The notes under the pieces: model-generated
Told to the model about the DNA's origin: nothing
The model's database searches: none
Seen by the model: only the letters and a program-made list of their open reading frames with translations
Program-made: the position numbers and the translations under genes
Shown: positions 1 through 21,429 of the stretch, one piece after another
Layout of the letters: every line of letters starts with the position of its first letter
Numbering within the stretch: position 1 is the first letter of the stretch
Source: a virus
Lineage: Duplodnaviria; Heunggongvirae; Uroviricota; Caudoviricetes
Strand: one strand, 5' to 3'
Virus record (IMG/VR): IMGVR_UViG_2609459820_000008
Length of the DNA: 21,429 bases

Positions 1-591
1 GACAAGCATCGTCTTGCCTTCCGCGCGTAACTCCCTCAACAGGCTGATGATTTTCGCTTCGGTTTTCACATCAACGCCGGTAAAAGGTTCATCCAGCAGG
101 ATCACATCACCCTGCTGTGCAATCGCTCTCGCCAGAAAGACGCGTTTCTTTTGTCCACCGGAAAGCTCGCCGATTTGTCGATGGCGAAAATCCACCATAT
201 CGACACGTTCCAGCGCATCGGTGACAATCTGACGATCCCTCTTTTTGGCTATACGCAACATACCCATGTGCCCATAGCGGCCCATCATCACCACATCTTC
301 CACTAGTACAGGAAATGACCAGTCAACCTCTTCTGACTGAGGGACGTAGGCAACCAGGTTTTTCTGTAGCGCCTGTCGCGTGGGAATACCCAGAACAGAT
401 ATCTTTCCGCTGGTCAGACGCACAAATCCCATAATCGCTTTAAACAACGTCGATTTTCCGGAACCGTTTACCCCAACCAGAGCGGCAATAGATCCACTTG
501 GTACTGTGAAGGATGCATCGCGCAGTGCTGTGTGCCCGTTACGCCAGGTGACAGTAACATCATTAACGACAATGCCCGCAGATTGCATCAT
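1..591 (-). CDS. sitB: Mn/Fe ABC transporter ATP-binding protein SitB, N-terminal part (gene continues past window start)
   Basis: Minus-strand translation from ATG at 589-591 gives [19 protein letters not shown]..., with Walker [13 protein letters not shown] signature LSGGQ and Walker B ILLDEP. Start overlaps the sitA stop (ATAATGATG), typical operon coupling. Plus-strand ORFs here are antisense shadows. Confidence 0.85.
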
Positions 592-1505
592 TATTTCTCC
601 CTTTTCCCGGCTTTAATTCCCTGTACCAGCGTACTGGTAGTAACCTTCAGAAGGTCGATATACGTAGGTACCGGGCCGTTTTCTGTGCTCAGGGAATCGA
701 CATAGAGTACACCGCCGTAGTGCGCGCCGGTTTCACGCGCAACCTGACGCGCTGGTTTATCGGAAATCGTACTCTCGCTAAAGACTGCCGGGATATGATT
801 TTTCTTCACCATATCAACAACCTTACGTACCTGCTGCGGCGTGCCTTGTTGATCGGCATTAATCGGCCACAGATAAAGCTCTTTTAGCCCCAAATCGCGT
901 GCGAGATAAGAAAAAGCCCCTTCACTGGTGACCATCCATCGCTGATTCTCAGGGAGTTCAGCAATCTGCTTACGCAGGGGGGCAAGGGTTTGGGTAATCT
1001 TGGCTTTATAAGTATCGGCATTACGTTGGTAGGTTTGTGCATTTGCCGGATCGTATTTTATCAACGCATCACGAATATTATCGACGTAAATCAGAGCATT
1101 ATCTGGCGACATCCAGGCATGGGGGTTAGGTTTGCCCTCATAGGGGCCTTCAGTGATCCCTACTGGCGTCACACCCGAAGAGACAATTACTTCTGGAACC
1201 CCATTAAGATGCTGGTAAAAGCGTTGGAACCACAATTCCAGATTCATACCATTGGCGAGAATCAGTTGTGCCCCCTGCGCACGTTTAATATCGCCAGGGG
1301 TAGGCTGATACTCATGAATTTCTGCACCGGGCTTGGTTATGGATGAGACTTCTGCAGCATCTCCAGCCACGTTTTTGGCCATATCTGCGATGATGGTAAA
1401 TGTTGTAATGACCTTGAATTTTTCAGTTGCACTCGCCTGAAATGCGATCGAGCAGGTGAGGGCGAGGCACCCCAAGAGCATGGTTACTTTTTTTATTGAG
1501 TACAT
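591..1505 (-). CDS. sitA: Periplasmic Mn(II)/Fe(II)-binding protein SitA of ABC transporter (cluster-9 substrate-binding protein)
   Basis: 304-aa ORF with signal peptide ([26 protein letters not shown]) and strong resemblance to recalled Salmonella/Shigella SitA ([49 protein letters not shown]). Preceded by MntR and Fur boxes. Confidence 0.9.
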
Positions 1506-1537
1506 AATTTAGTACCTATAGTGAGCAAAATTAGAAC

Positions 1538-1559
1538 AAACATAGCAACGGCTATGTTT
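1538..1559. promoter_or_regulatory. MntR operator (perfect palindrome AAACATAGC-AACG-GCTATGTTT) upstream of sitA
   Basis: Perfect 9-bp inverted-repeat arms seen directly, 33 bp upstream of the sitA start. Matches the recalled MntR box of enterobacterial sitA/mntH promoters. Confidence 0.75.
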
Positions 1560-1581
1560 TATAGCACAACCTATACAAAAT

Positions 1582-1600
1582 GAAAATGATTATCATTAGC
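1582..1600. promoter_or_regulatory. Fur box upstream of sitA
   Basis: GAAAATGATTATCATTAGC matches the 19-bp Fur consensus GATAATGATAATCATTATC at 16/19 positions, in the sitA promoter region. Confidence 0.7.
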
Positions 1601-1719
1601 AGCTTTGGGGCCCAAAACAGGGATTAGGTTGTTTCCTGCTGGCGACGCGTTATTGAGGAAAAAAGTAAGGCAGCTAGTAGGCTTTGAAATGACTTGATGA
1701 GGAAAATTGTTGATGGCAA

Positions 1720-1962
1720 AAATGGGGCAAAGCGCTGCAAAAGGGGCAAAAAAGGGGCAAAAAAAGAGTGGGTTATCGTAGCTTATTGTTGTCGCTGATG
1801 ATATTTAACACATTGAAAAATAAGTAAAATACTTATGAGTCAGAGAGTTGTGATTTTTGCCCTTACTTGTTCAGGTTGTATTGTTCTTTCTTTGTAATTT
1901 GTTGATTTTCTTTCATTATTTCAGTTCTCTGGTACTAAATGGGGCAAATTGGGGGCAAACTT
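1720..1962. repeat. Cluster of GGGGCAAA direct/inverted motif repeats beyond the integrase 3' end; candidate prophage attachment-site arm region
   Basis: Motif at about 1724, 1743, 1755 (direct), about 1853 (inverted, TTTTTGCCC) and twice at 1941-1957 (ATGGGGCAAATTGGGGGCAAAC). Position immediately past the int stop is where lambdoid attL/attR arm-type sites lie. Confidence 0.4.
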
Positions 1963-3519: not shown

Positions 3520-3708
3520 TCACGAGGACTGAAGTCTCTCGCAATTAAAATTTATCAGTTTTACTTTCTGCTCTCTGGAAACGGCTGCTTCTTTTTTACC
3601 TGAGAGCATTTTTTCGCATTCTGATTTCGTTAGTTTAGATTTTGAATATCTTGTCCAGTTAGTAGGAGTGCCACCTTCCTTTTCAATAGTGGCGGTAATT
3701 TTATACAT
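3520..3708 (-). CDS. ydaC: Small prophage protein, YdaC-like (DUF1187-type)
   Basis: ORF starting MYKITATIEKEGG... with a GGAGG Shine-Dalgarno 6 nt upstream; overlaps the ralR stop by 8 nt. Start choice within the 86-aa ORF is inferred from the RBS. Confidence 0.5.
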   Translation of the reverse strand: MYKITATIEKEGGTPTNWTRYSKSKLTKSECEKMLSGKKEAAVSREQKVKLINFNCERLQSS

Positions 3709-8522: not shown

Positions 8523-9013
8523 TTTAAATTTAACAGACAAGACCGACTCTTTATGGATATCGGAAATGCGCCTTCGTGTTGTGCCCGGTTTTATTTCACC
8601 ACCTCCGGGCTTTGGTGGTTTCTGCTATACCCCTACAGCGAGAATATAAATTTAACAGACAAGACCGACTCTTTATGGATATCGGAAATGCGCCTTCGTG
8701 TTGTGCCCGGTTTTATTTCACCACCTCCGGGCTTTGGTGGTTTCTGCTATACCCCTACAGCGAGAATATAAATTTAACAGACAAGACCGACTCTTTATGG
8801 ATATCGGAAATGCGCCTTCGTGTTGTGCCCGGTTTTATTTCACCACCTCCGGGCTTTGGTGGTTTCTGCTATACCCCTACAGCGAGAATATAAATTTAAC
8901 AGACAAGACCGACTCTTTATGGATATCGGAAATGCGCCTTCGTGTTGTGCCCGGTTTTATTTCACCACCTCCGGGCTTTGGTGGTTTCTGCTATACCCCT
9001 ACAGCGAGAATAT
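8523..9013. repeat. Perfect tandem repeat, 4 copies of a 122-bp unit (unit starts about 8526, 8648, 8770, 8892)
   Basis: Seen directly: the unit AAATTTAACAGACAAGACCGACTCTTTATGGATATCGG...CTACAGCGAGAATAT recurs head-to-tail with 122-nt period and no visible mismatches. The four staggered plus-strand ORFs in the track are frame-rotated copies of the same sequence. Each unit has a stem ACCACC-N10-GGTGGT. Confidence 0.95.
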
Positions 9014-10994: not shown

Positions 10995-11852
10995 ATGCTG
11001 TTTGTGCTTATTCTAAGCCACCGGGCAGCATCATACGGGGCAATTATGGCCGCATTACCATACATGCAACTGTACATAGCTGATTACCTGGCTGACACCA
11101 TGCATTTGTCAGCAGAGGAGCATGGTGCGTATTTGTTGCTGATGTTCAATTACTGGCAAACAGGAAAGCCAATACCTAAAAACAGGCTGGCAAAAATTGC
11201 CCGTCTGACTAACGAGCGATGGGCTGATGTTGAACCATCCTTGCAGGAGTTTTTTTGCGATAACGGCGAGGAATGGGTGCATCTTCGGATTGCGGAAGAT
11301 CTGGCATCAGTCAGGGAAAAATTAACCAAAAAATCAGCCGCAGGAAAAGCATCTGTTCAGGCCAGAAGAAGCAGAAAGGAAGCAGATGTTCAAACAAAAC
11401 AAGAGAGAAATTTAACAGGTGTTCAAACAGATGTTGAAGTGGTGTTTGAACATGATGTCAACACAAAGGCAACTAATAAAGATACAGATAAAGATCTAAA
11501 AACAGATCCCCCCCTAAATCCCCCCCGGGGGAATCGAGGTGTCAAAAAGTTTGACCCTCTGGATATTGCTTTGCCGAACTGGATTTCTGTCTCGCTTTGG
11601 CGTGAGTGGGTTGAATTTCGCCAGGCATTGCGAAAACCGATTCGAACGGAGCAGGGCGCTAACGGGGCGATACGGGAGCTGGAAAAATTCCGCCAGCAGG
11701 GTTTTTCACCTGAGCAGGTGATTAGACACAGCATCGCCAATGAATACCAGGGCTTGTTCGCGCCGAAAGGTGTTCGACCTGAGACGTTACTCCGACAGGT
11801 TAACACCGTCTCGTTACCGGATAGTGCGATCCCGCCAGGCTTCAGGGGGTAA
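10995..11852 (+). CDS. ydaU: YdaU-like replication-associated protein (DUF1376)
   Basis: 285-aa ORF preceding the DnaC-like gene. An alternative internal start (MAALPYMQLY) cannot be excluded. Confidence 0.7.
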   Translation: MLFVLILSHRAASYGAIMAALPYMQLYIADYLADTMHLSAEEHGAYLLLMFNYWQTGKPIPKNRLAKIARLTNERWADVEPSLQEFFCDNGEEWVHLRIAEDLASVREKLTKKSAAGKASVQARRSRKEADVQTKQERNLTGVQTDVEVVFEHDVNTKATNKDTDKDLKTDPPLNPPRGNRGVKKFDPLDIALPNWISVSLWREWVEFRQALRKPIRTEQGANGAIRELEKFRQQGFSPEQVIRHSIANEYQGLFAPKGVRPETLLRQVNTVSLPDSAIPPGFRG

Positions 11853-12627: not shown

Positions 12628-13389
12628 ATGGAGACTGTTTTTGACGCACTGAAAGCAATGGGAAAAGCCACGTCGGTAGAACTGGCTGCGCGACTTGATA
12701 TCAGTCGTGAAGAGGTACTGAACGAGCTGTGGGAGCTGAAAAAGGCTGGTTTCGTTGATAAAAGCGTATACACCTGGCGTGTGGCTGATAACAACGTTCA
12801 GCAGGAACAGCCAGAGCAGGCAGAACCGCCGGAAGAAACCACCACGGCAACAGTCGCGAAAATTTCGGAGTGCGATTTAACTGCGACGATTGAACAACGT
12901 GGACCACAAACGGCGGATGAGTTGGCTACATGGTTCGGTACCACATCACGCAAAGTGGCTTCAACGCTGGCAATGGCAATCAGCAAAGGTCGTCTGATTC
13001 GCGTTAATCAGAACGGTAAATTTCGTTACTGCATACCGGGCGATAATTTACCAGCAAAGCCGAAAGCTGCATCGGTAACGGAAACTGATTTTAAAGCCTT
13101 TCCTCAGCCAGCAGATGTTGCGTTACCAGTACAGGAAGCTGCAACACAGGAAGATATTAAAACAGAAACTGTGGCGGACATTGTGCAGTCGCTGCCATCG
13201 TTTACTGAAACGCGAGCTGATGACCTGATTTTGCCATCGCTGCATATGGCAAACCGCGAACTGCGTCGGGCGAAAAATCATGTCCAGAAGTGGGAGCGAG
13301 TCTGCGCCGCGCTGCGGGAGCTGAACAAGCACCGGGATATTGTTCGACAGATTGCTGATTCTTCCCGCCGTGTTGTATCGGAAAAGTGA
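12628..13389 (+). CDS. Prophage protein with N-terminal winged-helix-like domain (YdaW-like position), function unknown
   Basis: Start chosen at [13 protein letters not shown]... (GGGAGG RBS 7 nt upstream) rather than the ORF-track start at 12577. Acidic Q/E/P-rich linker and C-terminal domain. Confidence 0.55.
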
Positions 13390-13404
13390 TTGCCGGAGGC
13401 GCTT

Positions 13405-13836
13405 ATGGCAAAAGTATTTACACAAGAAGAGCGGGAAAAAATTAAAGGGCAGGTTGTTGAGCTAGTACGCCGGAGTGGACGCGAGACGTTACGACAACTG
13501 GAGGCCAAGACAGGTGCGACAAGATATCTGATGAGCGTTCTCGCCAGAGAGCTGGTTGCCAGTGGCGATGTATACAACTCTGGTTACGGGTTATTCCCGT
13601 CTGAACAGGCTCGTAAGGACTGGCAAAATGCCCGCAAAAAACTATCCAGGGCAAAGGTGAAGAAACCATCTGTGGTTGATCCGGACCTTATCTGGTCATT
13701 ACCAGACGGAGAAATACGCCGCTACGACAGGCGTCTGAACATAATCTGTCGCGAGTGCCGGAAGAGTGAAGTTATGCAGCGTGTGCTGGCGTTTTATCAG
13801 AATGGTTTTCGAGAGAGGCTTGGAGATCAGGGATGA
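13405..13836 (+). CDS. Hypothetical prophage protein (about 143 aa)
   Basis: ORF with GGAGG RBS before ATG at 13405 (MAKVFTQEEREKIKGQVVELV...). Backbone-like GC content. No recognised motifs. Confidence 0.5.
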   Translation: MAKVFTQEEREKIKGQVVELVRRSGRETLRQLEAKTGATRYLMSVLARELVASGDVYNSGYGLFPSEQARKDWQNARKKLSRAKVKKPSVVDPDLIWSLPDGEIRRYDRRLNIICRECRKSEVMQRVLAFYQNGFRERLGDQG

Positions 13837-14029
13837 ATAGAACGATGAAGGATGGAAGCTACATATTCTCGGTACTAAGATTTATTTTTCTGACACAAAA
13901 TGACCATTTGGCGTTACATAATCCCAAAAAAACGTATCAAAAATCTCAAAATGCGTTACGATTAGAGAGTATTTTGATTCTGCGTGCTCATTTTTTGATT
14001 GCTGTGGCTTTTTGTTGTGGGAGTGTTGA

Positions 14030-15184
14030 ATGGATTATTTATCAGAAGTGTTAAAAATCATTGAAGGTGCAACAAAGGCAAATGCTTCGATGGCTAGTAA
14101 TTATGCTGGGTTGCTGGCAGATAAGCTCGAACAAAAAGGGGAGGTCAAGCAAGCCAGAATGATAAGAGAAAGGTTGCTTAGAGCTCCCCAGGCGTTGGCA
14201 GGAGCTCAAAGGGCTGGAGGTGGGATATCTCTGGGCTCATTACCGGTAGATATTGATAGTCGACTCAACACTGTTGATGTCAGTTATCCTAAATTAGACA
14301 GTTCAGAGATTTTTCTGCCTGCAGCAATCAGTACCCGTGTTGAAGAGTTTATCACTAATGTTCAACGTTATGATGAGTTTGTTAAAGCTGATGCAGCATT
14401 GCCGAGTCGTATGCTCGTGTATGGAAAGCCAGGAACAGGTAAGACTATGTTATCTAAGTACATCGCTACCCGCTTAGATTTTCCACTTCTTACAGTGCGT
14501 TGCGATACTTTGATTAGTAGTTTATTGGGACAAACCAGCAAAAATCTTAGACAGGTTTTCGATTATGTAATGCAGAGGCCATCAGTGCTTTTTTTAGACG
14601 AATTTGATGCTTTAGCTGGAGCAAGAGGTAATGAGAGAGATATAGGTGAGCTTCAGCGAGTTGTCATTTCACTATTGCAGAATATGGATGCGGCATCAGA
14701 GGATACGGTAATTATTGCCTCAACTAACCATGAGCAACTTCTGGATCCTGCAATCTGGAGGCGATTTAGCTTCAGAATTCCAATGCCTCTGCCTGACATA
14801 CATCAGAGAGAGTTAATTTGGAAAAATCGTTTAAAGAATATGATATGTAGCGATCTAGATTTAAGTGATTTATCAAGAAAATCGGAAGGATTATCCGGAG
14901 CAATAATTGAACAGGTGAGCTTGGATGCACGTAGGGATGCAGTTATTGAAGGTGCAAGTGTGATAAATCACCATAAATTGTATAGGCGTTTGTATCTTGC
15001 TCAATCGCTTATGGAAGGTGTAAATTTAAGCACTTACGAAGATGAAATTCGTTGGTTACGTTCTAAAGATAAAAAATTATTTTCTATCAGAGTTCTTGCT
15101 AATTTGTACAAACTTACATCAAGAGTAATTTCAAACATTCTGAAGGAGTCAGGAGCATATGAGCAGAAGGGGTACACAGTTTAG
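14030..15184 (+). CDS. AAA+ ATPase (classic AAA domain) - first gene of a two-gene low-GC cargo; IetA-like candidate defence ATPase
   Basis: 384 aa. Walker A GKPGTGKT (aa 132-139), Walker B VLFLDEFDAL (aa 186-195), sensor-1 IIASTNH, arginine RRF. GGGAG RBS. Sampled stretches of the cargo are about 27-32% GC versus roughly 50% flanking. Confidence 0.9.
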   Translation: MDYLSEVLKIIEGATKANASMASNYAGLLADKLEQKGEVKQARMIRERLLRAPQALAGAQRAGGGISLGSLPVDIDSRLNTVDVSYPKLDSSEIFLPAAISTRVEEFITNVQRYDEFVKADAALPSRMLVYGKPGTGKTMLSKYIATRLDFPLLTVRCDTLISSLLGQTSKNLRQVFDYVMQRPSVLFLDEFDALAGARGNERDIGELQRVVISLLQNMDAASEDTVIIASTNHEQLLDPAIWRRFSFRIPMPLPDIHQRELIWKNRLKNMICSDLDLSDLSRKSEGLSGAIIEQVSLDARRDAVIEGASVINHHKLYRRLYLAQSLMEGVNLSTYEDEIRWLRSKDKKLFSIRVLANLYKLTSRVISNILKESGAYEQKGYTV

Positions 15185-17423
15185 TAACGCAAAAGTTACA
15201 AACCCAATGTTAAGAATCCCTTTTTCCAGTAGTGACTTGGGTGCAATAGTAAACGCTGGCGGTGGGGCAAAGGTATTGGTTGATGTAACAGCCGAATATA
15301 GACAAGGGCTAGTAAGAAATTTAACAACCAGTAAACATTATTTAGAATCCAAACTTTCAGAGTACCCTGGAAGCTTGGGTACTTTGGTTTTCAAATTAAG
15401 AGACCAGGGAATAGCCAAAACGCATAGGCCGAACAAAATTGCTCAAGAGGCTGGATTGCAAAATGCCGGTCATGCCAAAATAGATGAAATGTTGGTTGCT
15501 GCTCATGCCGGCTGTTTTGACGTATTAGAGTCAGTCATTTTACATCGGAATATTAAAGCGATTTTGGCTAATCTAAGCGCGATTGAGCGCATTGAACCTT
15601 GGGATGAGAATAGGAAGGTTCCAGGAGGCACTGATGGTTTGTTTGAATCATCAAACATCCTTGTACGACTATTTGAGTACACAGGTGAAGATGCAACTTA
15701 CAACAACTATGAAAACGTTATTTCTATATTAGAACAACACGGAGTTAAATATGATGAGATTAGACAAAAATGTGGTCTTCCCTTATTAAGGATAATGGAT
15801 TTATCCCCAAATGATAGATATATATTAGACATTCTCATTGATTACCCGGGTATAAGAACGTTAATTCCTGAACCAAAATATTCAGCATTCCCGGTTAGTG
15901 TAAGTGATTCTGTTGGCATTGAAACAAATAGCTTTCCCGTACCATCAGAAGAATTACCCATTGTTGCTGTATTTGACACTGGGGTAAGCCCCATCGCGGC
16001 AACAATTACTCCTTGGGTAGTGAGTAGGGAAACATACGTAATTCCTCCTGATACGAGTTATGAACATGGGACTATGGTGTCTTCATTGATATCAGGCGCT
16101 CATTTTTTAAATGACAATCATCCATGGATTCCTGATACAAAATCTAAAATCCATGATGTTTGTGCCTTAGATGAAAATGGATCTTATATATCAGATTTAA
16201 TTCTGAGGCTAGCAGATGCTGTAAATAAAAGACCAGATATAAAAGTCTGGAATTTGTCTTTGGGAGGCGGACCATGTAATGAGCAGACGTTTAGTGATTT
16301 TGCGATGGAGTTAGATCGGCTCAGCGATAAATTTGGTATTTTGTTTGTAGTTGCTGCAGGTAATTATGTAGATGAACCTATACGTACATGGCCAAATCCT
16401 GATCCGCTTGGAGGTGCTGATTTAATTTCCTCTCCTGGAGAGTCAGTCCGAGCACTAACAGTTGGTTCAGTTTCTCATATGGAAGCTAATGATGCTTTAA
16501 GTGAAATTGGAACACCGACACCATATACTCGTCGTGGCCCTGGGCCTGTATTTACTCCAAAGCCAGATATAATCCATGCTGGCGGTGGGGTTCATAGACC
16601 TTGGAATGTAGGAGCAAGCAGTTTAAAGGTCGTAGGGCCAGATAATAGGCTTTGCTCTAATTTTGGTACTAGTTTTGCTGCTCCAATTGTGGCAAGTTTA
16701 GCTGCGCATACATGGCAGAGAATAGCCACTAATACAGACTTTAATGTTTCACCATCATTGATTAAAGCATTATTAATTCATTCCGCTCAATTATCTTCTC
16801 CTGATTACTCGCCAAGTGAAAGACGCTATTTGGGAGCGGGAATTCCTAATGAAGTTATTGAGACCTTATATGATAGTGATGATAGGTTTACTCTGATTTT
16901 CCAAACATTCTTGGTTCCTGGGGTGAGGTGGAGAAAGGATAACTATCCCATACCATCGGCACTTATTCAAAATGGAAAATTTAAAGGTGAGATTGTAATT
17001 ACTGCTGCATATGCACCACCACTGAACCCTAATGCCGGCAGTGAATATGTTCGCGCGAACGTAGAGCTAAGTTTTGGCTTAATTGAGAATAATACTATAA
17101 AAGGAAAAGTGCCTATGGAAGGAGAAAACGGTCAATCTGGATATGAGAGAGCTCAAATTGAGCATGGTGGAAAGTGGTCACCAGTAAAAATTCATCGCAA
17201 GGCATTTAATAAAGGAATTACTTCGGGTAACTGGGCTCTTCAGGCTAAAACAACGTTGAGAGCGAATGAACCGGCCTTAATGGAGCCTTTACCTGTAACT
17301 ATTGTAGTAACTTTAAAATCATTAGATGGAAACACACAAGTTTATGCTGATGGCGTAAGAGCTTTAAATGCTAATAACTGGGCTCACTATCCATTGCCTG
17401 CTCGTGTGCCAGTTTCCGTATAA
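15159..17423 (+). CDS. Subtilisin-like serine peptidase (S8 family) with extra N- and C-terminal domains; IetS-like candidate defence protease
   Basis: 754 aa. Catalytic motifs in S8 order: Asp in VAVFDTGVS (about aa 273), His in YEHGTMVSS (about aa 303), oxyanion Asn in VVAAGNY (about aa 402), Ser in GTSFAAPIVA (about aa 505). Start overlaps the ATPase 3' end by 26 nt with AGGAG RBS (translational coupling). Low GC. Confidence 0.9.
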   Translation: MSRRGTQFSNAKVTNPMLRIPFSSSDLGAIVNAGGGAKVLVDVTAEYRQGLVRNLTTSKHYLESKLSEYPGSLGTLVFKLRDQGIAKTHRPNKIAQEAGLQNAGHAKIDEMLVAAHAGCFDVLESVILHRNIKAILANLSAIERIEPWDENRKVPGGTDGLFESSNILVRLFEYTGEDATYNNYENVISILEQHGVKYDEIRQKCGLPLLRIMDLSPNDRYILDILIDYPGIRTLIPEPKYSAFPVSVSDSVGIETNSFPVPSEELPIVAVFDTGVSPIAATITPWVVSRETYVIPPDTSYEHGTMVSSLISGAHFLNDNHPWIPDTKSKIHDVCALDENGSYISDLILRLADAVNKRPDIKVWNLSLGGGPCNEQTFSDFAMELDRLSDKFGILFVVAAGNYVDEPIRTWPNPDPLGGADLISSPGESVRALTVGSVSHMEANDALSEIGTPTPYTRRGPGPVFTPKPDIIHAGGGVHRPWNVGASSLKVVGPDNRLCSNFGTSFAAPIVASLAAHTWQRIATNTDFNVSPSLIKALLIHSAQLSSPDYSPSERRYLGAGIPNEVIETLYDSDDRFTLIFQTFLVPGVRWRKDNYPIPSALIQNGKFKGEIVITAAYAPPLNPNAGSEYVRANVELSFGLIENNTIKGKVPMEGENGQSGYERAQIEHGGKWSPVKIHRKAFNKGITSGNWALQAKTTLRANEPALMEPLPVTIVVTLKSLDGNTQVYADGVRALNANNWAHYPLPARVPVSV

Positions 17424-17435
17424 CAACTATATAAA

Positions 17436-17468
17436 TCAAACCCGCTGTAGCGGGTTTGATTTATTTGT
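17436..17468 (+). terminator. Rho-independent terminator after the protease gene
   Basis: Hairpin AAACCCGC-TGTA-GCGGGTTT followed by GATTTATTTG, 13 nt after the protease stop. Confidence 0.65.
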
Positions 17469-17836
17469 GGGTGTGTTTTATAAAAATACCGCCCATACAC
17501 AACAAAATACAAAAAGTATTATAGATAAAAAAGGAACGTAATGTGCAGATTTGTTGTTTTCCATATTTACTCACCTTAATATGATTAACCCTGATAGGGT
17601 TGTTATTTCAGCGGTTTTCAAATGAGATATTATGGTGATCTGGCAGATTTGCATAACATTAAAATTTAATTTGTTTAACCGCTTTTAATAATAAGCGTTG
17701 TTTGTATCCCAGCAATCTGTTTTTTGGTTTTTATTCCATTAAGGTGGGGCTTTACACTGGAGCCAGTTTATTTATACTTCATACGTCAGCCTGAACAACT
17801 GGCATCTGCTGCGCTGCGCCATCGAGAGATTAAGAA

Positions 17837-18436
17837 ATGGCGCATATACAACTGGTCAAACAAACCTCTTCCGGATTACTTCTCCCGGCGACGCCGGAGA
17901 GTTGTGATTTTCTGCATCAAATCAAAATAGGCGAGTGGATACACGCAGACTTTAAGCGTGTGCGTAACTACGCATTCCACAAGCGTTTTTTCAAACTCCT
18001 GCAACTGGGATTCGATTACTGGACTCCGGTCGGTGGGGCGATCACGCCTCGCGAACGAGAACTGCTGTCTGGTTTCGTTGATTACCTGTGCGAATCAGTT
18101 GGTCGGGAACACACGCCAGCCCTGAGTGATGCCGCAGAGCAATATCTGAATACAGTTGCGACACGCAGAACCCGGGATACGGCATTGCTAAAGTCGTTTG
18201 AGGCTTTTCGCGAGTGGGTAACCATTCAGGCTGGATTTTACACCGAACATTTTTATCCGGACGGTAGCCGCGGGCGTCGGGCAAAATCTATCGCTTTTGC
18301 GAATATGGACGAAACCGAGTTTCAGCAGGTTTATAAATCTGTTCTGAATGTGCTGTGGAACTGGATTCTGTTCCGTAAATTTTCCTCTCCGGAACAAGTC
18401 GAAAATGTGGCCGCGCAGCTGCTGGAGTTTGCGTAA
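17837..18436 (+). CDS. Lambdoid nin-region conserved protein (about 199 aa), function unknown
   Basis: ORF directly upstream of, and overlapping by TAATG with, the YbcO-like gene. Family assignment not secure from sequence alone. Confidence 0.55.
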   Translation: MAHIQLVKQTSSGLLLPATPESCDFLHQIKIGEWIHADFKRVRNYAFHKRFFKLLQLGFDYWTPVGGAITPRERELLSGFVDYLCESVGREHTPALSDAAEQYLNTVATRRTRDTALLKSFEAFREWVTIQAGFYTEHFYPDGSRGRRAKSIAFANMDETEFQQVYKSVLNVLWNWILFRKFSSPEQVENVAAQLLEFA

Positions 18437-18726
18437 TGGTGGATTTACGTAAAGCGGCGCGGGGGCGGATGTGCACCGTCAGAATTCTTGGCTACTGCAA
18501 TCACGATCCGGAAACGTCTGTGCTGGCGCATTACCGACTGGCGGGAACGTGCGGAACAGCGACAAAACCACACGATATGCAGGCGGCGATTGCCTGTAGC
18601 TCATGCCACGATTTAATCGACGGGCGGGTAAAAACAAGCGATTACACCAAAGAAGATTTACGCCTGATGCATGCAGAAGGTGTTTTTCGCACGCAAGAAA
18701 TCTGGAGAAAGGAAGGTTATTTATGA
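18436..18726 (+). CDS. YbcO-like DUF1364 protein (putative nuclease of lambdoid nin regions)
   Basis: 96 aa, MVDLRKAARGRMCTVRILGYCNHDPETSVLAH...IACSSCHD, strongly reminiscent of recalled DLP12 YbcO (same length, Cys/His pattern). Confidence 0.7.
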   Translation: MVDLRKAARGRMCTVRILGYCNHDPETSVLAHYRLAGTCGTATKPHDMQAAIACSSCHDLIDGRVKTSDYTKEDLRLMHAEGVFRTQEIWRKEGYL

Positions 18727-19265
18727 TTTACCCAACAAATACAGGCAAAAGCGGGGAACACCTTCGTCTCACCACGCTGGAAAGTGTCTGGATTCAGGGA
18801 AAACTGCGCATGTGGGGGCGCTGGTCGTATATTGGCGGCGGTAAGACGGGGAATATGTTCAACCAGTTGTTGGCCTCTAAAAAGCTGACAAAAACGGCAA
18901 TTAACGAGGCGCTCCGGAGGATGAAAAAAGCAGGTCTGAACAAGTCTGAACTTGAGGCTTTTTTGCGGGATATGATTAACGGTAAGCAAAAGAGCTGGCT
19001 GGCGCATTGTACTGATGCAGAGGCGTTATGTATTGATCGGGTCATAAGTGAGGTGCTGGCAGAGCATCCAGGATTGATTAGCGTCCTTCGGCAACGGTAT
19101 GAGGGGCGGGGGATGACCAAACGCAAAATGGCTGAATTGCTAAATGATGCACACCCAGAGTGGTGTTTTAGCACATGCGAAAAGCGAATTGCTAATTGGT
19201 TGGCCGTTGCTGAGTATGCGCTATACATTCCCATGCGAGAATCATTCGCTCAAAAAACGGCTTGA
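18723..19265 (+). CDS. Putative late-gene antiterminator (Q-like) protein
   Basis: 180 aa from MIYPTNTGKSG... with AAGGAAGG RBS. Assignment by synteny only: last gene before the tRNA/terminator region and lysis cassette. Sequence not independently recognised. Confidence 0.45.
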   Translation: MIYPTNTGKSGEHLRLTTLESVWIQGKLRMWGRWSYIGGGKTGNMFNQLLASKKLTKTAINEALRRMKKAGLNKSELEAFLRDMINGKQKSWLAHCTDAEALCIDRVISEVLAEHPGLISVLRQRYEGRGMTKRKMAELLNDAHPEWCFSTCEKRIANWLAVAEYALYIPMRESFAQKTA

Positions 19266-19350
19266 TTTTTTACGCATAAACTGCTTCAATTTTGCTACGC
19301 TTCGCAAAGCTGTATCGCGAGGCGAATCAAGCGCAATTAAACTTTAATAG

Positions 19351-19380
19351 AACCCGCCATCGAGCGGGTTTTGTTGTTTC
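19351..19380 (+). terminator. Rho-independent terminator downstream of the Q-like gene (candidate tR')
   Basis: Hairpin AACCCGC-CATCGA-GCGGGTT followed by TTGTTGTTTC. Confidence 0.6.
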
Positions 19381-19439
19381 TGTGGTGTGATATCAGAAAC
19401 GACATTTAATCATCGCCTTCAAAATAAATTTATTTATAT

Positions 19440-19560
19440 GTTGTTGTATATATTTTAAGTGAAAGTGAATTATTCACATAAAATAAAAACATATAAATAA
19501 ATTTACATAACTTGACGCAAAGTGTTGTTGCGATTGGAATATTAAATCGTATTATCGAAA
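19440..19560 (+). promoter_or_regulatory. Candidate promoter with AT-rich UP-like region driving the tRNA genes
   Basis: Very AT-rich tract 19440-19510, then TTGACG (19512-19517) and alternative TTGCGA-N16-TATTAT (19528-19555) about 60 nt upstream of the first tRNA. Exact -10/-35 assignment uncertain. Confidence 0.4.
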
Positions 19561-19618
19561 ACGGTTCTGAGGGGGAACTCTTCTTTGCTCGGTGATATCG
19601 CTCCCCTGAAGAACCAAT

Positions 19619-19694
<76 letters not shown>

Positions 19695-19697
19695 TAT

Positions 19698-19772
<75 letters not shown>

Positions 19773-20128
19773 GAGAAACAAGCCTTATTGTATCGTGGCA
19801 CTGGCGTATTTTTTATTACGTGGGGTGGGTTGTTTTAAAAAGACAATCCGTTCTCTGACTATGATTGGAGGTCGGTTGTAGTCACAGTGCTAATTTTTTT
19901 ACGGCAGCAGAATGGTGCATTATCGGTGGAGATTTTGTATTTCCTGGCAGGGTCGGTGATGCATCATTCTGGTGTTGTAAAAGCACCGCAGAGGTGTTCC
20001 TCAGTGCGAGGGTGGTTTAGATAGTGGTTTGGCGGGGAATCACAATATCTGTTGTAGAGATGGATATTTCGGGAGGCACCCGACACCTCGATTCTTATTA
20101 CAATAAAATGATTTATCTCATGCAGTGA

Positions 20129-20158
20129 CCAACCGCCATATTTGGCGGTTTTTTTTAT
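20129..20158 (+). terminator. Strong Rho-independent terminator
   Basis: Hairpin AACCGCC-ATATTT-GGCGGTT followed by a run of eight T, about 355 nt downstream of the tRNA pair. Confidence 0.75.
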
Positions 20159-20546
20159 TCCTTCCTCAGGACAAAAAAAGACACGAGCATCCTGGAATAC
20201 TCGTGGGACAAAGTCCTTTAGATAGCAATTTGCGAGAGGGTAAAAAAGTAGCGCGGTCGTCGGATTAAGCCCGCGGGACAAAGTCCATGAAGAATAATAA
20301 GTATTGGCCCCCTTCTGGGGACATGTTCATACTACTAAGCTTCAGAAGTGGTTTAAATCATCAAATTGACCTTAATTTTCGATAAGTCTTATTTCATTTC
20401 TTTGCGCCACATCTGGCGCGCATCAAATAACGCCACGCAAAGGGCATCTGCGGATGCCGGTGCTTTTGACGGGGTGTTTTTTACGGGCCGCTGGTGGCCA
20501 TTTTTTGTTTCCATTACACAGCGCCCGCATCTGCGAGGTGGGGGTT

Positions 20547-20762
20547 ATGAAATCCATGGATAAGTTAACAACGGGTGTCGCCTATGGCACCTCCGCAGGC
20601 AGTGCTGGCTACTGGTTTTTACAGTTGCTCGATAGAGTAACTCCGTCACAGTGGGCTGCAATCGGTGTGCTGGGTAGTCTGGTATTTGGCCTGCTGACGT
20701 ACCTGACAAACCTTTATTTCAAGATTAAAGAAGATAAGCGCAAGGCTGCGAGAGGTGAATAA
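20547..20762 (+). CDS. S: Class II holin (phage-21 S-type pinholin), dual-start motif MKSMDK
   Basis: 71 aa [31 protein letters not shown]...[11 protein letters not shown]: two transmembrane segments, charged C-terminus. Start within the 102-aa ORF chosen by GGTGGGGG RBS and similarity to recalled S21/EssD. Confidence 0.85.
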
Positions 20763-21259
20763 TGCCTCCATCATTACGAAAAGCCGTTGCTGCTGCTATT
20801 GGTGGCGGAGCAATTGCTATAGCATCAGTGTTAATCACTGGCCCAAGTGGTAACGATGGTCTGGAAGGTGTCAGCTACATACCATATAAAGATATCGTTG
20901 GTGTATGGACTGTATGTCACGGACACACCGGAAAAGACATCATTCCCGGTAAAACGTATACCGAAGCAGAATGCAAAGCCCTCCTGAATAAAGACCTTGC
21001 CACGGTCGCCAGACAAATTAACCCGTACATCAAAGTCGATATACCGGAAACAACGCGCGGCGCTCTTTACTCATTCGTTTACAACGTGGGTGCTGGCAAT
21101 TTCAGAACATCGACGCTTCTTCGCAAAATAAACCAGGGCGATATCAAAGGCGCATGTGATCAGCTACGTCGCTGGACATATGCTGGCGGTAAGCAATGGA
21201 AAGGTCTCATGACTCGTCGTGAGATTGAGCGTGAAATCTGTTTGTGGGGTCAGCAATGA
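20762..21259 (+). CDS. R: SAR endolysin (T4-lysozyme-like muramidase with N-terminal signal-anchor-release domain), phage-21 R-type
   Basis: 165 aa. N-terminal Gly/Ala-rich weakly hydrophobic segment ([20 protein letters not shown]) followed by lysozyme-like domain. Start overlaps the holin stop. Confidence 0.9.
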
Positions 21260-21429
21260 ACAGAGTAACCGCGATTATCTCCGCTCTGGTTATCTGCATC
21301 GTCGTCTGCCTGTCATGGGCTGTTAATCATTACCGTGATAACGCCATCGCCTACAAAGAACAGCGCGACAAAAATGCCAGAGAACTGAAGCTGGCGAACG
21401 CGGCAATTACTGACATGCAGATGCGTCAG
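21256..21429 (+). CDS. Rz: Rz-like inner-membrane spanin subunit, N-terminal part (continues past window end)
   Basis: ATG at 21256 overlapping the endolysin stop (ATGA). [58 protein letters not shown]: N-terminal TM anchor followed by coiled-coil-like sequence. Confidence 0.7.

What the first reader, a model, noticed from the sequence alone, without database searches (positions are those of the whole stretch)
13837..17470. Low-GC two-gene cargo: AAA+ ATPase translationally coupled to an S8 subtilase (IetAS-like candidate anti-phage module)
A 384-aa AAA+ ATPase and a 754-aa S8 peptidase form a tight operon (26-nt overlap, own RBSs, terminator right after) in an island far more AT-rich than the surrounding prophage. 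It occupies the moron slot between replication and nin genes, where Rac of K-12 carries trkG. The pairing matches the ATPase-plus-subtilase IetAS defence architecture as I recall it. The protease has about 260 aa N-terminal and 220 aa C-terminal of unrecognised sequence around the catalytic core, which could be sensor or effector domains. If it is divergent from characterised homologues, the mechanism is essentially unknown.
Basis: partly seen in the sequence, partly recalled or inferred. Interest (0 to 1): 0.85.

Follow-up and report, generated by a model that had tools for sequence, protein, structure and literature searches.

The report
Known IetAS anti-phage system in prophage
The two genes are a textbook copy of IetAS, a known ATPase-plus-protease anti-phage and toxin-antitoxin system, carried as swappable cargo by a Rac-like E. 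coli prophage and already annotated as such in public genomes, so the call is right but the finding is ordinary.

Summary
ietA (14030-15184, 384 aa) and ietS (15159-17423, 754 aa) overlap by 26 nt, each has an RBS, a hairpin follows at 17431-17464, and the island is 39% GC against about 50% in the flanks.

Both proteins match the PADLOC IetA and IetS profiles end to end. Both pass NCBIfam's curated equivalog cut-offs. The DNA is at least 99.5% identical in 78 of 5,426 complete E. coli genomes, where PGAP already names the genes iteA and iteS.

Walker A K138, Walker B D190/E191 and the triad D273/H303/S505 are intact and invariant across 120 homologues.

The "unrecognised" protease flanks are conserved family domains. 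The N-terminal part is two ferredoxin-like modules of ACT or subtilase-propeptide type. The C-terminal part is a beta jelly roll as in the subtilases Tk-SP and KP-43.

The cargo spans about 13800-17438, in a variable slot between DUF977 and DUF1367 that holds SIR2, NACHT, BstA-like, HokD or Doc genes in sibling prophages. trkG is not allelic to this slot.

The family's mechanism is unsolved. The protease is the toxin, the ATPase is the antitoxin, and a Bacillus homologue acts by abortive infection.

Small additions: a conserved 30-nt motif upstream of ietA, and a possible HTH tail on IetA.

The parts
13800..17438 (+). IetAS-specific cargo island of about 3.64 kb and about 40% GC, inserted between the DUF977 gene and the shared DUF1367-upstream region of a Rac-like prophage
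   Evidence: Homology to sibling prophages with other cargo (L004-L007) ends at window 13798-13800 and resumes at 17439, 17477 or 17814.
13933..13962 (+). Conserved 30-nt motif CGTATCAAAAATCTCAAAATGCGTTACGAT, 68 nt upstream of the ietA ATG. It is a candidate promoter or operator.
   Evidence: The pattern is exact in E. coli, Klebsiella, Morganella and Leclercia loci whose other upstream DNA does not align. It occurs once in the window, with 0 expected by chance. All 23 IMG/VR matches to a relaxed pattern lie just upstream of ietA. Its function was not tested.
14030..15184 (+). ietA (iteA), a 384-aa classic-clade AAA+ ATPase and the antitoxin/regulator component. The N-terminal region is residues 1-95, the AAA+ core plus lid is about 96-315, and a conserved C-terminal tail of about 316-384 may be an HTH.
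   Evidence: PADLOC IetA 474 bits. NCBIfam NF042959 526.6 against a cut-off of 510. Pfam AAA 106 bits. Best solved relatives are p97/CDC48 D1 and D2. Walker A K138, Walker B D190/E191, sensor N233 and R244/R245 are present.
15159..15184 (+). 26-nt overlap of the ietA 3' end with the ietS 5' end, consistent with translational coupling
   Evidence: The same 26-nt overlap is present in the Klebsiella, Morganella and Leclercia loci. The Pseudomonas locus has a 41-nt overlap.
15159..17423 (+). ietS (iteS), a 754-aa cytoplasmic S8 subtilase and the toxin/effector component
   Evidence: PADLOC IetS 998 bits. NCBIfam NF042956 1043 against a cut-off of 900. Pfam Peptidase_S8 over residues 268-544. D273, H303, N365 and S505 are invariant in 120 homologues.
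15159..15944 (+). IetS N-terminal region, residues 1-262: a disordered head (1-40), a long helix, then two ferredoxin-like alpha/beta modules. The second (residues 167-237) has beta-alpha-beta-beta-alpha-beta topology and lies directly before the catalytic domain.
15945..16793 (+). IetS catalytic subtilase core, residues 263-545
   Evidence: Pfam PF00082. The nearest solved sequences are KP-43 (1wmd) and SubHal (5fax).
16794..17420 (+). IetS C-terminal beta-jelly-roll domain, residues 546-754. It is the most conserved part of the protein.
17431..17464 (.). Hairpin terminator 8 nt after the ietS stop. It is bidirectional in form, and its right-hand part belongs to the shared prophage backbone.
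   Evidence: Scan and sequence. A homologous hairpin is present in the SIR2- and NACHT-cargo prophages.

Best explanation
This is a canonical two-gene IetAS system, spelled IteAS by NCBI. It is a toxin-antitoxin-type anti-phage module carried as exchangeable cargo (a moron) by a Rac-like lambdoid prophage of E. coli.

Shown here:
- Both proteins are full-length members of the IetA and IetS families, with all catalytic residues intact.
- The genes overlap by 26 nt.
- The pair sits in a variable slot between the replication genes and the nin/Q genes. Sibling prophages fill that slot with other defence-type or toxin genes.

Inferred from characterised homologues:
- IetS is a cytoplasmic subtilase whose activity is toxic.
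- IetA is a p97-like AAA+ ATPase that holds IetS in check in the uninfected lysogen.
- When a sensitive phage infects, a phage protein relieves that restraint, directly or indirectly.
- IetS then degrades cellular or phage proteins, and the cell stops growing or dies before progeny are released. This is abortive infection, and it protects the sibling lysogens and therefore the prophage.

My own inference from the models:
- IetS resembles a complete pro-subtilase without a signal peptide. It has tandem ferredoxin-like N-terminal modules of the kind that serve as subtilase propeptides or ACT-type regulatory domains, then the core, then a jelly-roll domain.
- The restraint is therefore likely to act on the N-terminal modules.
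- The operon may be autoregulated through the conserved motif at 13933-13962.

The confidence given (0.85) is for the identity and the general toxin-antitoxin, abortive-infection mode. For identity alone it is about 0.97. For the specific inferred steps it is about 0.5 or less.
For: Identity: PADLOC IetA scores 474 bits and IetS 998 bits, both end to end. Both NCBIfam equivalog cut-offs are passed. The identical DNA is annotated iteA/iteS in 78 complete E. coli genomes. Catalytic residues are present and invariant.

Architecture is conserved in Klebsiella, Leclercia, Morganella and Pseudomonas.

Cargo status: GC drops from about 50% to about 39%. Sibling prophages hold SIR2 (PADLOC PDC-S25, 277 bits), NACHT, KilA-N/BstA-like, HokD or Doc genes in the same slot.

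Mechanism by homology:
- The protease is the toxin and the ATPase the antitoxin in pTiC58 IetAS, as cited in PMC13069673.
- The same holds for SGI1 SgiAT, PMC5006074.
- The same holds for Mycoplasma TA132/133, PMC8562856.
- The B. cereus IetAS collapses cultures at high MOI and is made toxic by SPbeta yosG, bioRxiv 10.1101/2022.08.27.505566.
- E. coli ECOR52 ietAS has been tested against 29 phages, bioRxiv 10.1101/2022.08.21.504612.
- Protease activity is needed for defence, and an ietA mutant could not be built, in the ietHAS variant, PMC13069673.

Domain models.
Against: - No phenotype was or could be measured for this allele.
- I could not establish whether this allele is the one tested in ECOR52 or by Gao et al.
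- ECOR52 ietAS alone gave only limited protection.
- No sigma-70-type promoter was found upstream of ietA, so expression in the lysogen is unproven.
- The family's substrates, trigger in E. coli and mode of IetA action are unknown. PMC13069673 states that the anti-phage mechanism remains unknown.
- IetA pore loop 1 reads S-L-L-G with no aromatic residue. This argues against a processive unfoldase.
Confidence: 0.85

Rival explanations
1. The primary role is prophage addiction or stabilisation. On this reading IetAS acts as a post-segregational killing toxin-antitoxin pair that penalises loss or excision of the Rac-like prophage, and phage defence is secondary or absent for this allele.
For: The family was first described as a plasmid-stability TA system on pTiC58 (cited). 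SgiAT promotes maintenance of SGI1. The Mycoplasma pair is a chromosomal TA module. ECOR52 ietAS alone gave limited protection.
Against: This is not exclusive of defence. Homologues defend against phages. The slot holds other defence-type genes in sibling prophages. SgiAT gave no killing effect from its own promoter.
Confidence: 0.2
2. The genes serve the phage's own lytic cycle, for example as a maturation protease with a chaperone ATPase or as a host-takeover function, rather than as defence or TA cargo.
For: The genes lie on the early-right strand with no terminator between DUF977 and ietA, so they could be co-transcribed with the replication genes after induction.
Against: Near-identical sibling prophages lack the pair and carry unrelated cargo in the slot. 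The pair lies outside the head and tail module. Both proteins pass defence-family equivalog models. Homologues also occur outside phages, including on a Ti plasmid, on SGI1, in a Pseudomonas island and in Mycoplasma chromosomes.
Confidence: 0.03
3. It is silent cargo: intact in sequence but not expressed in the lysogen, so it has no present function.
For: No consensus promoter was found in the 193-nt upstream region. The upstream operon is expected to be repressed by RacR in a lysogen, which is established knowledge of Rac.
Against: Both ORFs and all catalytic residues are intact. The allele is at least 99.5% identical and unbroken in 78 genomes. A motif upstream of ietA is perfectly conserved across genera while the DNA around it is not, which indicates a maintained regulatory element.
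Confidence: 0.05

Closest known systems
IetAS / IteAS anti-phage system (Gao et al. 2020; NCBIfam NF042959 and NF042956; PADLOC PDLC02196 and PDLC02197)
   Same: It has the same two genes in the same order, full-length profile matches above the curated cut-offs, and intact ATPase and protease motifs. RefSeq gives the identical DNA these names.
   Different: No difference was detected. This is a member, not a variant. Whether it is the very allele tested experimentally could not be checked, because neither the Gao et al. paper nor the ECOR52 sequence is held.
IetAS of Agrobacterium Ti plasmid pTiC58 (Yamamoto et al. 2009), and SgiAT of Salmonella genomic island 1
   Same: An AAA-ATPase antitoxin is paired with a subtilase toxin in a two-gene operon on a mobile element.
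   Different: Those systems sit on a plasmid and on an integrative mobilisable element and were studied for stability. This one is prophage cargo. SgiA is 50% and SgiT 36% identical to the pTiC58 proteins. Identity of the window proteins to either system was not measured.
ietHAS (Liu-DS4), the three-gene variant with an SNF2 helicase (PMC13069673)
   Same: It shares the IetA and IetS components, and protease activity is needed for defence.
   Different: There is no helicase gene here. The neighbours are DUF977 upstream and DUF1367 downstream.
Bacillus cereus m1293 IetAS (Stokar-Avihail et al.)
   Same: It belongs to the same named system. It supplies the evidence for abortive infection and for a phage trigger, SPbeta yosG.
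   Different: It comes from a Gram-positive host, and sequence identity to this allele was not measured. The trigger in E. coli is unknown.
Subtilases with a propeptide and a C-terminal beta jelly roll (Tk-SP 3afg, KP-43 1wmd)
   Different: Those enzymes are secreted degradative proteases. IetS has no signal peptide, has two N-terminal modules behind a long helix, and is partnered with an ATPase.
p97/CDC48-type classic AAA+ ATPases, and TRIP13 of CBASS
   Same: The IetA core aligns with p97 D1 and D2 at E about 1e-53. It gives a weak PADLOC TRIP13 match of 58 bits.
   Different: IetA has a single AAA module. Pore loop 1 is S-L-L-G with no aromatic residue. There is no HORMA or cyclase partner. 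The N- and C-terminal extensions are specific to the family.

Membership tests
IetAS (IteAS) defence / toxin-antitoxin system | An AAA+ ATPase that matches the IetA family model over its full length and above the curated threshold | tested here: met
   NCBIfam NF042959 equivalog scores 526.6 bits against a cut-off of 510, over positions 1-367 of 367. PADLOC PDLC02196 scores 474 bits over positions 1-371 of 374.
IetAS (IteAS) defence / toxin-antitoxin system | An S8 subtilase that matches the IetS family model over its full length and above the curated threshold | tested here: met
   NCBIfam NF042956 equivalog scores 1043.4 bits against a cut-off of 900, over positions 1-747 of 747. PADLOC PDLC02197 scores 998 bits over positions 3-748 of 749.
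IetAS (IteAS) defence / toxin-antitoxin system | The two genes are adjacent and co-directional, with ietA upstream of ietS | tested here: met
   ietA is at 14030-15184 and ietS at 15159-17423, both on the + strand, with a 26-nt overlap. The arrangement is the same in homologous loci.
IetAS (IteAS) defence / toxin-antitoxin system | Intact Walker A and B motifs in IetA and an intact Asp-His-Ser triad in IetS | tested here: met
   K138, D190/E191, D273, H303 and S505 are present. The triad and N365 are invariant in 120 homologues.
IetAS (IteAS) defence / toxin-antitoxin system | Confers resistance to phage when expressed | not testable with these tools
   This needs plaque assays. Homologues do confer resistance.
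IetAS (IteAS) defence / toxin-antitoxin system | IetS is toxic alone and is neutralised by IetA | not testable with these tools
   This has been shown for the pTiC58, SGI1 and Mycoplasma homologues but not for this allele.
ietHAS three-gene variant | An SNF2-family helicase gene (ietH) in the operon | tested here: not met
   The flanking genes are DUF977 and DUF1367. There is no helicase ORF between 13390 and 18436.
CBASS TRIP13/HORMA regulatory module | A TRIP13-type ATPase with HORMA and cyclase/effector genes nearby | tested here: not met
   The TRIP13 match is only 58 bits against 474 bits for IetA. The annotated neighbourhood has no HORMA or CD-NTase gene.
Phage head-maturation protease | Located in the head-morphogenesis module and conserved among sibling phages | tested here: not met
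   The pair lies between the replication and nin/Q genes. It is absent from sibling prophages that share both flanks.

The most novel reading that the evidence does not exclude
IetA may be a two-in-one antitoxin.

First, its conserved C-terminal tail (about residues 338-376, EIRWLRSKDKKLFSIRVLANLYKLTSRVISNILKE) may be a helix-turn-helix. It would bind the perfectly conserved motif at 13933-13962 and autoregulate the operon, as type II antitoxins do.

Second, its AAA+ ring may act on the tandem ferredoxin-like (propeptide- or ACT-like) N-terminal modules of IetS to keep a cytoplasmic pro-subtilase locked. A phage cue that stalls or titrates IetA would then both de-repress the operon and unlock the protease.

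None of this has been described for the family in the literature held here.
Probability: 0.12. Interest if true: 0.55.

Novelty: already known. Interest (0 to 1): 0.17.

Why it matters
As a discovery it does not matter much. The system is named, has curated models, is found by PADLOC and PGAP, and this allele is annotated in dozens of genomes.

Its residual value is as material for an open question, namely how an AAA+ ATPase and a subtilase together sense phage and stop infection. The held literature still calls this mechanism unknown.

This work adds four practical things:
- a domain map of IetS: tandem ferredoxin-like modules, the catalytic core, then a jelly roll;
- a conserved upstream motif that could be the operator or promoter;
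- exact cargo borders;
- evidence that the boundary between the replication and nin genes of Rac-like and related enterobacterial prophages is a recurrent landing site for IetAS and for other defence-type genes.

Tried and rejected
- The 73-aa ORF at 13833-14054 has an ATGA overlap with the DUF977 stop and is called "kinase fragment" in the phage record ON470595. I rejected it as a gene. It has no Pfam or PADLOC hit, it is not annotated by PGAP, and the frame is not kept in the Klebsiella, Leclercia or Morganella loci.
- A sigma-70 promoter upstream of ietA was not found by the consensus scan. By eye, TACGAT at 13957-13962 has only a 3-of-6 match at the -35 position.
- The inverted repeats in the upstream region are A/T runs and are not conserved in other genera, so I dropped them.
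- An HTH in the IetA tail gave no Pfam hit even at E = 10. A six-sequence profile gave only E 0.03-0.3 against PDB chains. I keep it as a by-eye lead only.
- The exact 30-nt motif found nothing in the one-genome-per-species collection. A relaxed pattern there gave three unrelated chance hits.
- The Gao et al. 2020 and Yamamoto et al. 2009 papers are not held, so what they showed is cited second-hand from papers that are held.
- Searches by protein accession and by the IteAS spelling found no relevant paper. No mechanistic IetAS paper was found.
- There is no match on plasmids.
- ECOR52 was not among the strains listed in the rows shown, so identity to the tested allele is unresolved.


Full report
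**Observation**

The window holds two + strand ORFs at the stated place. One runs 14030-15184 (384 aa) and the other 15159-17423 (754 aa), and they overlap by 26 nt. GGGAG sits 6 nt before the first ATG. AAGGAG and AGGAG sit before the second.

The ietS stop codon (17421-17423) is followed after 8 nt by a 15-bp-stem hairpin at 17431-17464 with a T-rich tail. GC is 39.3% across 13837-17836, against 49.8% for the replication genes to the left and 49.9% for the nin/Q genes to the right.

Pfam finds AAA (106 bits) in the first protein and Peptidase_S8 (92 bits, residues 268-544) in the second. Walker B D190/E191, D273, H303 and the oxyanion N365 are also present.

**Identity**

Both proteins match the IetA and IetS models of PADLOC from end to end. 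IetA scores 474 bits over profile positions 1-371 of 374, and IetS scores 998 bits over positions 3-748 of 749. Both pass the curated equivalog thresholds of NCBIfam: IteA_antiphage 526.6 against 510, and IteS_antiphage 1043.4 against 900.

The 3.6-kb stretch is at least 99% identical in 78 of 5,426 complete E. coli genomes. It is always chromosomal and single-copy, and PGAP already labels the genes "anti-phage ATPase IteA" and "S8 family anti-phage peptidase IteS". A more sensitive search adds only one diverged allele at 66% nucleotide identity. The same DNA is in the deposited phage vB_EcoS-683R6 and in about 20 IMG/VR viral contigs. It is on no plasmid in PLSDB.

The module is therefore a plain member of a described and curated family, not a divergent relative.

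**Context and borders**

The surrounding genes are those of a Rac-like lambdoid prophage. In order they are intR, xisR, ralR with the RalA sRNA, recT, recE, kilR, racR, ydaS, ydaT, ydaU, ydaV, DUF1627 and DUF977. IetAS follows, then DUF1367, YbcO, a Q-like DUF1133 protein, two tRNAs, holin and lysozyme.

Many E. coli prophages share both flanks but carry different cargo between DUF977 and DUF1367:
- a SIR2 protein (PADLOC candidate PDC-S25, 277 bits) with an IS421;
- a NACHT protein with HokD;
- a KilA-N protein with a BstA-like C-terminus, with Hok;
- a Doc toxin with HokD;
- an HNH nuclease, and others.

Pairwise comparison places the cargo borders at about 13800, in the last codons of the DUF977 gene, and at about 17438. 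The AT-rich 17439-17836 stretch and the right half of the terminator hairpin belong to the shared backbone.

In Klebsiella and Leclercia, IetAS pairs that are 74-75% identical sit in the equivalent position of other lambdoid prophages. There they follow the DnaT/P or DnaC-like replication genes and precede DinI, DUF1367, NinG and Q, and they keep the same 26-nt overlap. In Morganella the pair sits beside a prophage integrase. In Pseudomonas it lies in an island with Fic, NERD and AAA_15/21 genes.

The statement that K-12 Rac carries trkG there is not. In intact relatives trkG lies after the lysis genes of the same prophage. K-12 Rac simply lacks the equivalent of window 13078-21275.

**The protease flanks**

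All 120 best homologues are 708-771 aa long and align over 94-100% of the query, down to 50% identity. The flanks are therefore family features. The C-terminal region (546-754) is the most conserved part (0.66), ahead of the catalytic core (0.62) and the N-terminal region (0.45).

A model of residues 1-262 is confident from residue 40 to 240, with pLDDT of about 93. It shows a long helix followed by two alpha/beta modules. The second (residues 167-237) has beta-alpha-beta-beta-alpha-beta topology and lies just before the catalytic domain.

There is no hydrophobic N-terminal signal (direct reading of the sequence), so the enzyme is cytoplasmic.

**The ATPase**

IetA is a single-module classic-clade AAA+ protein. 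Its closest solved relatives are p97/CDC48 D1 and D2, at E about 1e-53. Walker A, Walker B, sensor 1 (N233) and the arginine pair R244/R245 are present.

In the HMMER alignment the pore-loop-1 position reads S-L-L-G. The equivalents are K-L-A-G in p97 D1 and M-W-F-G in D2. The absence of an aromatic residue argues against processive threading.

The first 95 and last 70 residues match nothing in Pfam, yet the family profile covers them. The tail (EIRWLRSKDKKLFSIRVLANLYKLTSRVISNILKE) is conserved from E. coli to Pseudomonas and looks like a three-helix HTH by eye. The only statistical support is E 0.03-0.3.

**Mechanism**

The steps below come from homologues, not from this allele.
- The pTiC58 pair is a plasmid-stability toxin-antitoxin system with the protease as toxin and the ATPase as antitoxin (cited in PMC13069673).
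- SgiAT of SGI1 behaves the same way in E. coli (PMC5006074).
- So does the Mycoplasma TA132/133 pair, whose toxin causes filamentation in E. coli (PMC8562856).
- A B. cereus IetAS protects by abortive infection and becomes toxic when the SPbeta gene yosG is co-expressed. Escaper phages also carry mutations in replication proteins (bioRxiv 10.1101/2022.08.27.505566).
- An E. coli ietAS from ECOR52 gave limited protection alone and synergy with Zorya II against T3. Its mutual exclusion with Zorya II was attributed to its prophage location (bioRxiv 10.1101/2022.08.21.504612).
- In the helicase-bearing ietHAS variant, protease activity is required and an ietA mutant could not be built. [quoted passage not shown]

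No solved structure of either protein exists by sequence search, and I found no mechanistic paper.

The explanation I commit to has four steps. A toxic cytoplasmic subtilase is held inactive by its ATPase partner. A phage product lifts that hold. Proteolysis arrests the cell. The lysogen population, and with it the prophage, is spared. Prophage addiction is a likely side benefit.

**Small additions**

A 30-nt motif, CGTATCAAnAATnnnAnnATnCGTTACGAT, lies at 13933-13962, 68 nt before the ietA ATG. It is identical at all specified positions in the E. coli, Klebsiella, Morganella and Leclercia loci, although the rest of their upstream DNA cannot be aligned.

All 23 IMG/VR matches to a relaxed form sit directly upstream of ietA. 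ietA is visible downstream in 20 of them, and 3 are cut by contig ends. Most of those contigs carry the same E. coli allele, so there are only four or five independent lineages.

The motif is a candidate promoter or operator. No consensus sigma-70 promoter was detected.

**Verdict**

The thing is already known and already annotated, so interest is low. The residual interest lies in the unsolved mechanism of the family, for which the domain map and the upstream motif are modest leads.

Noticed in passing
window 1-1909: The left end carries sitB' and sitA of the iron/manganese transporter (SitA ORF at 591-1505, minus strand). This is followed at 1714-1909 by sequence matching the right end of K-12 Rac plus the att core, directly abutting intR. 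In lysogens sitABCD sits at the far right end of this same prophage, next to uspF. The window therefore shows an attP-type junction, from an excised circle or a tandem copy. Seven complete genomes have sitA, att and only a fragment of the integrase.
   Followed up: partly
window 8525-9013: A perfect 122-bp tandem repeat is present in 4.0 copies, next to the position of the K-12 kilS sRNA. Near-identical prophages have 2 copies (L001) or 1 copy (L002, K-12). sieB, which follows in K-12, is absent here.
   Followed up: partly
window 13933-13962: A 30-nt motif upstream of ietA is perfectly conserved across four enterobacterial genera while the surrounding intergenic DNA is not. It is always found just upstream of ietA in viral contigs. 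It is a candidate operator or promoter.
   Followed up: partly
window 15041-15157 (IetA residues about 338-376): The conserved C-terminal tail of IetA resembles a three-helix HTH by eye. It has no Pfam hit and only weak profile hits (E 0.03-0.3).
   Followed up: partly
window 13078-21275 versus K-12 Rac (L003 13201-13202): K-12 Rac has a clean 8.2-kb deletion relative to this phage. It removes the 3' part of the DUF1627 gene (hence the truncated ydaW), DUF977, the cargo slot, nin/Q, both tRNAs, the holin and the lysozyme gene. This is why trkG follows ydaW/rzpR in K-12.
   Followed up: yes
window 13837-17836 slot, in loci L004-L007: The DUF977|DUF1367 boundary of Rac-like prophages is a cargo hotspot. 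Occupants seen include SIR2 (PADLOC PDC-S25), NACHT, KilA-N/BstA-like, HokD, Doc, HNH and DUF5677 genes. Related Klebsiella and Leclercia prophages carry IetAS at the equivalent boundary.
   Followed up: partly
window 19619-19772: tRNA-Thr(TGT) and tRNA-Gly(TCC) genes lie between the Q-like gene and the lysis cassette of the prophage.
   Followed up: no
window 3524-3702: The RalA antitoxin sRNA (Rfam RF02694, 220 bits) lies opposite ralR. Together they form a second toxin-antitoxin and defence-related module in the same prophage.
   Followed up: no
window 10995-11852: The ydaU-like replication gene (285 aa) is intact here. It is annotated as frameshifted in the otherwise 99.9% identical prophage of strain 266917_2 (L001).
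   Followed up: no
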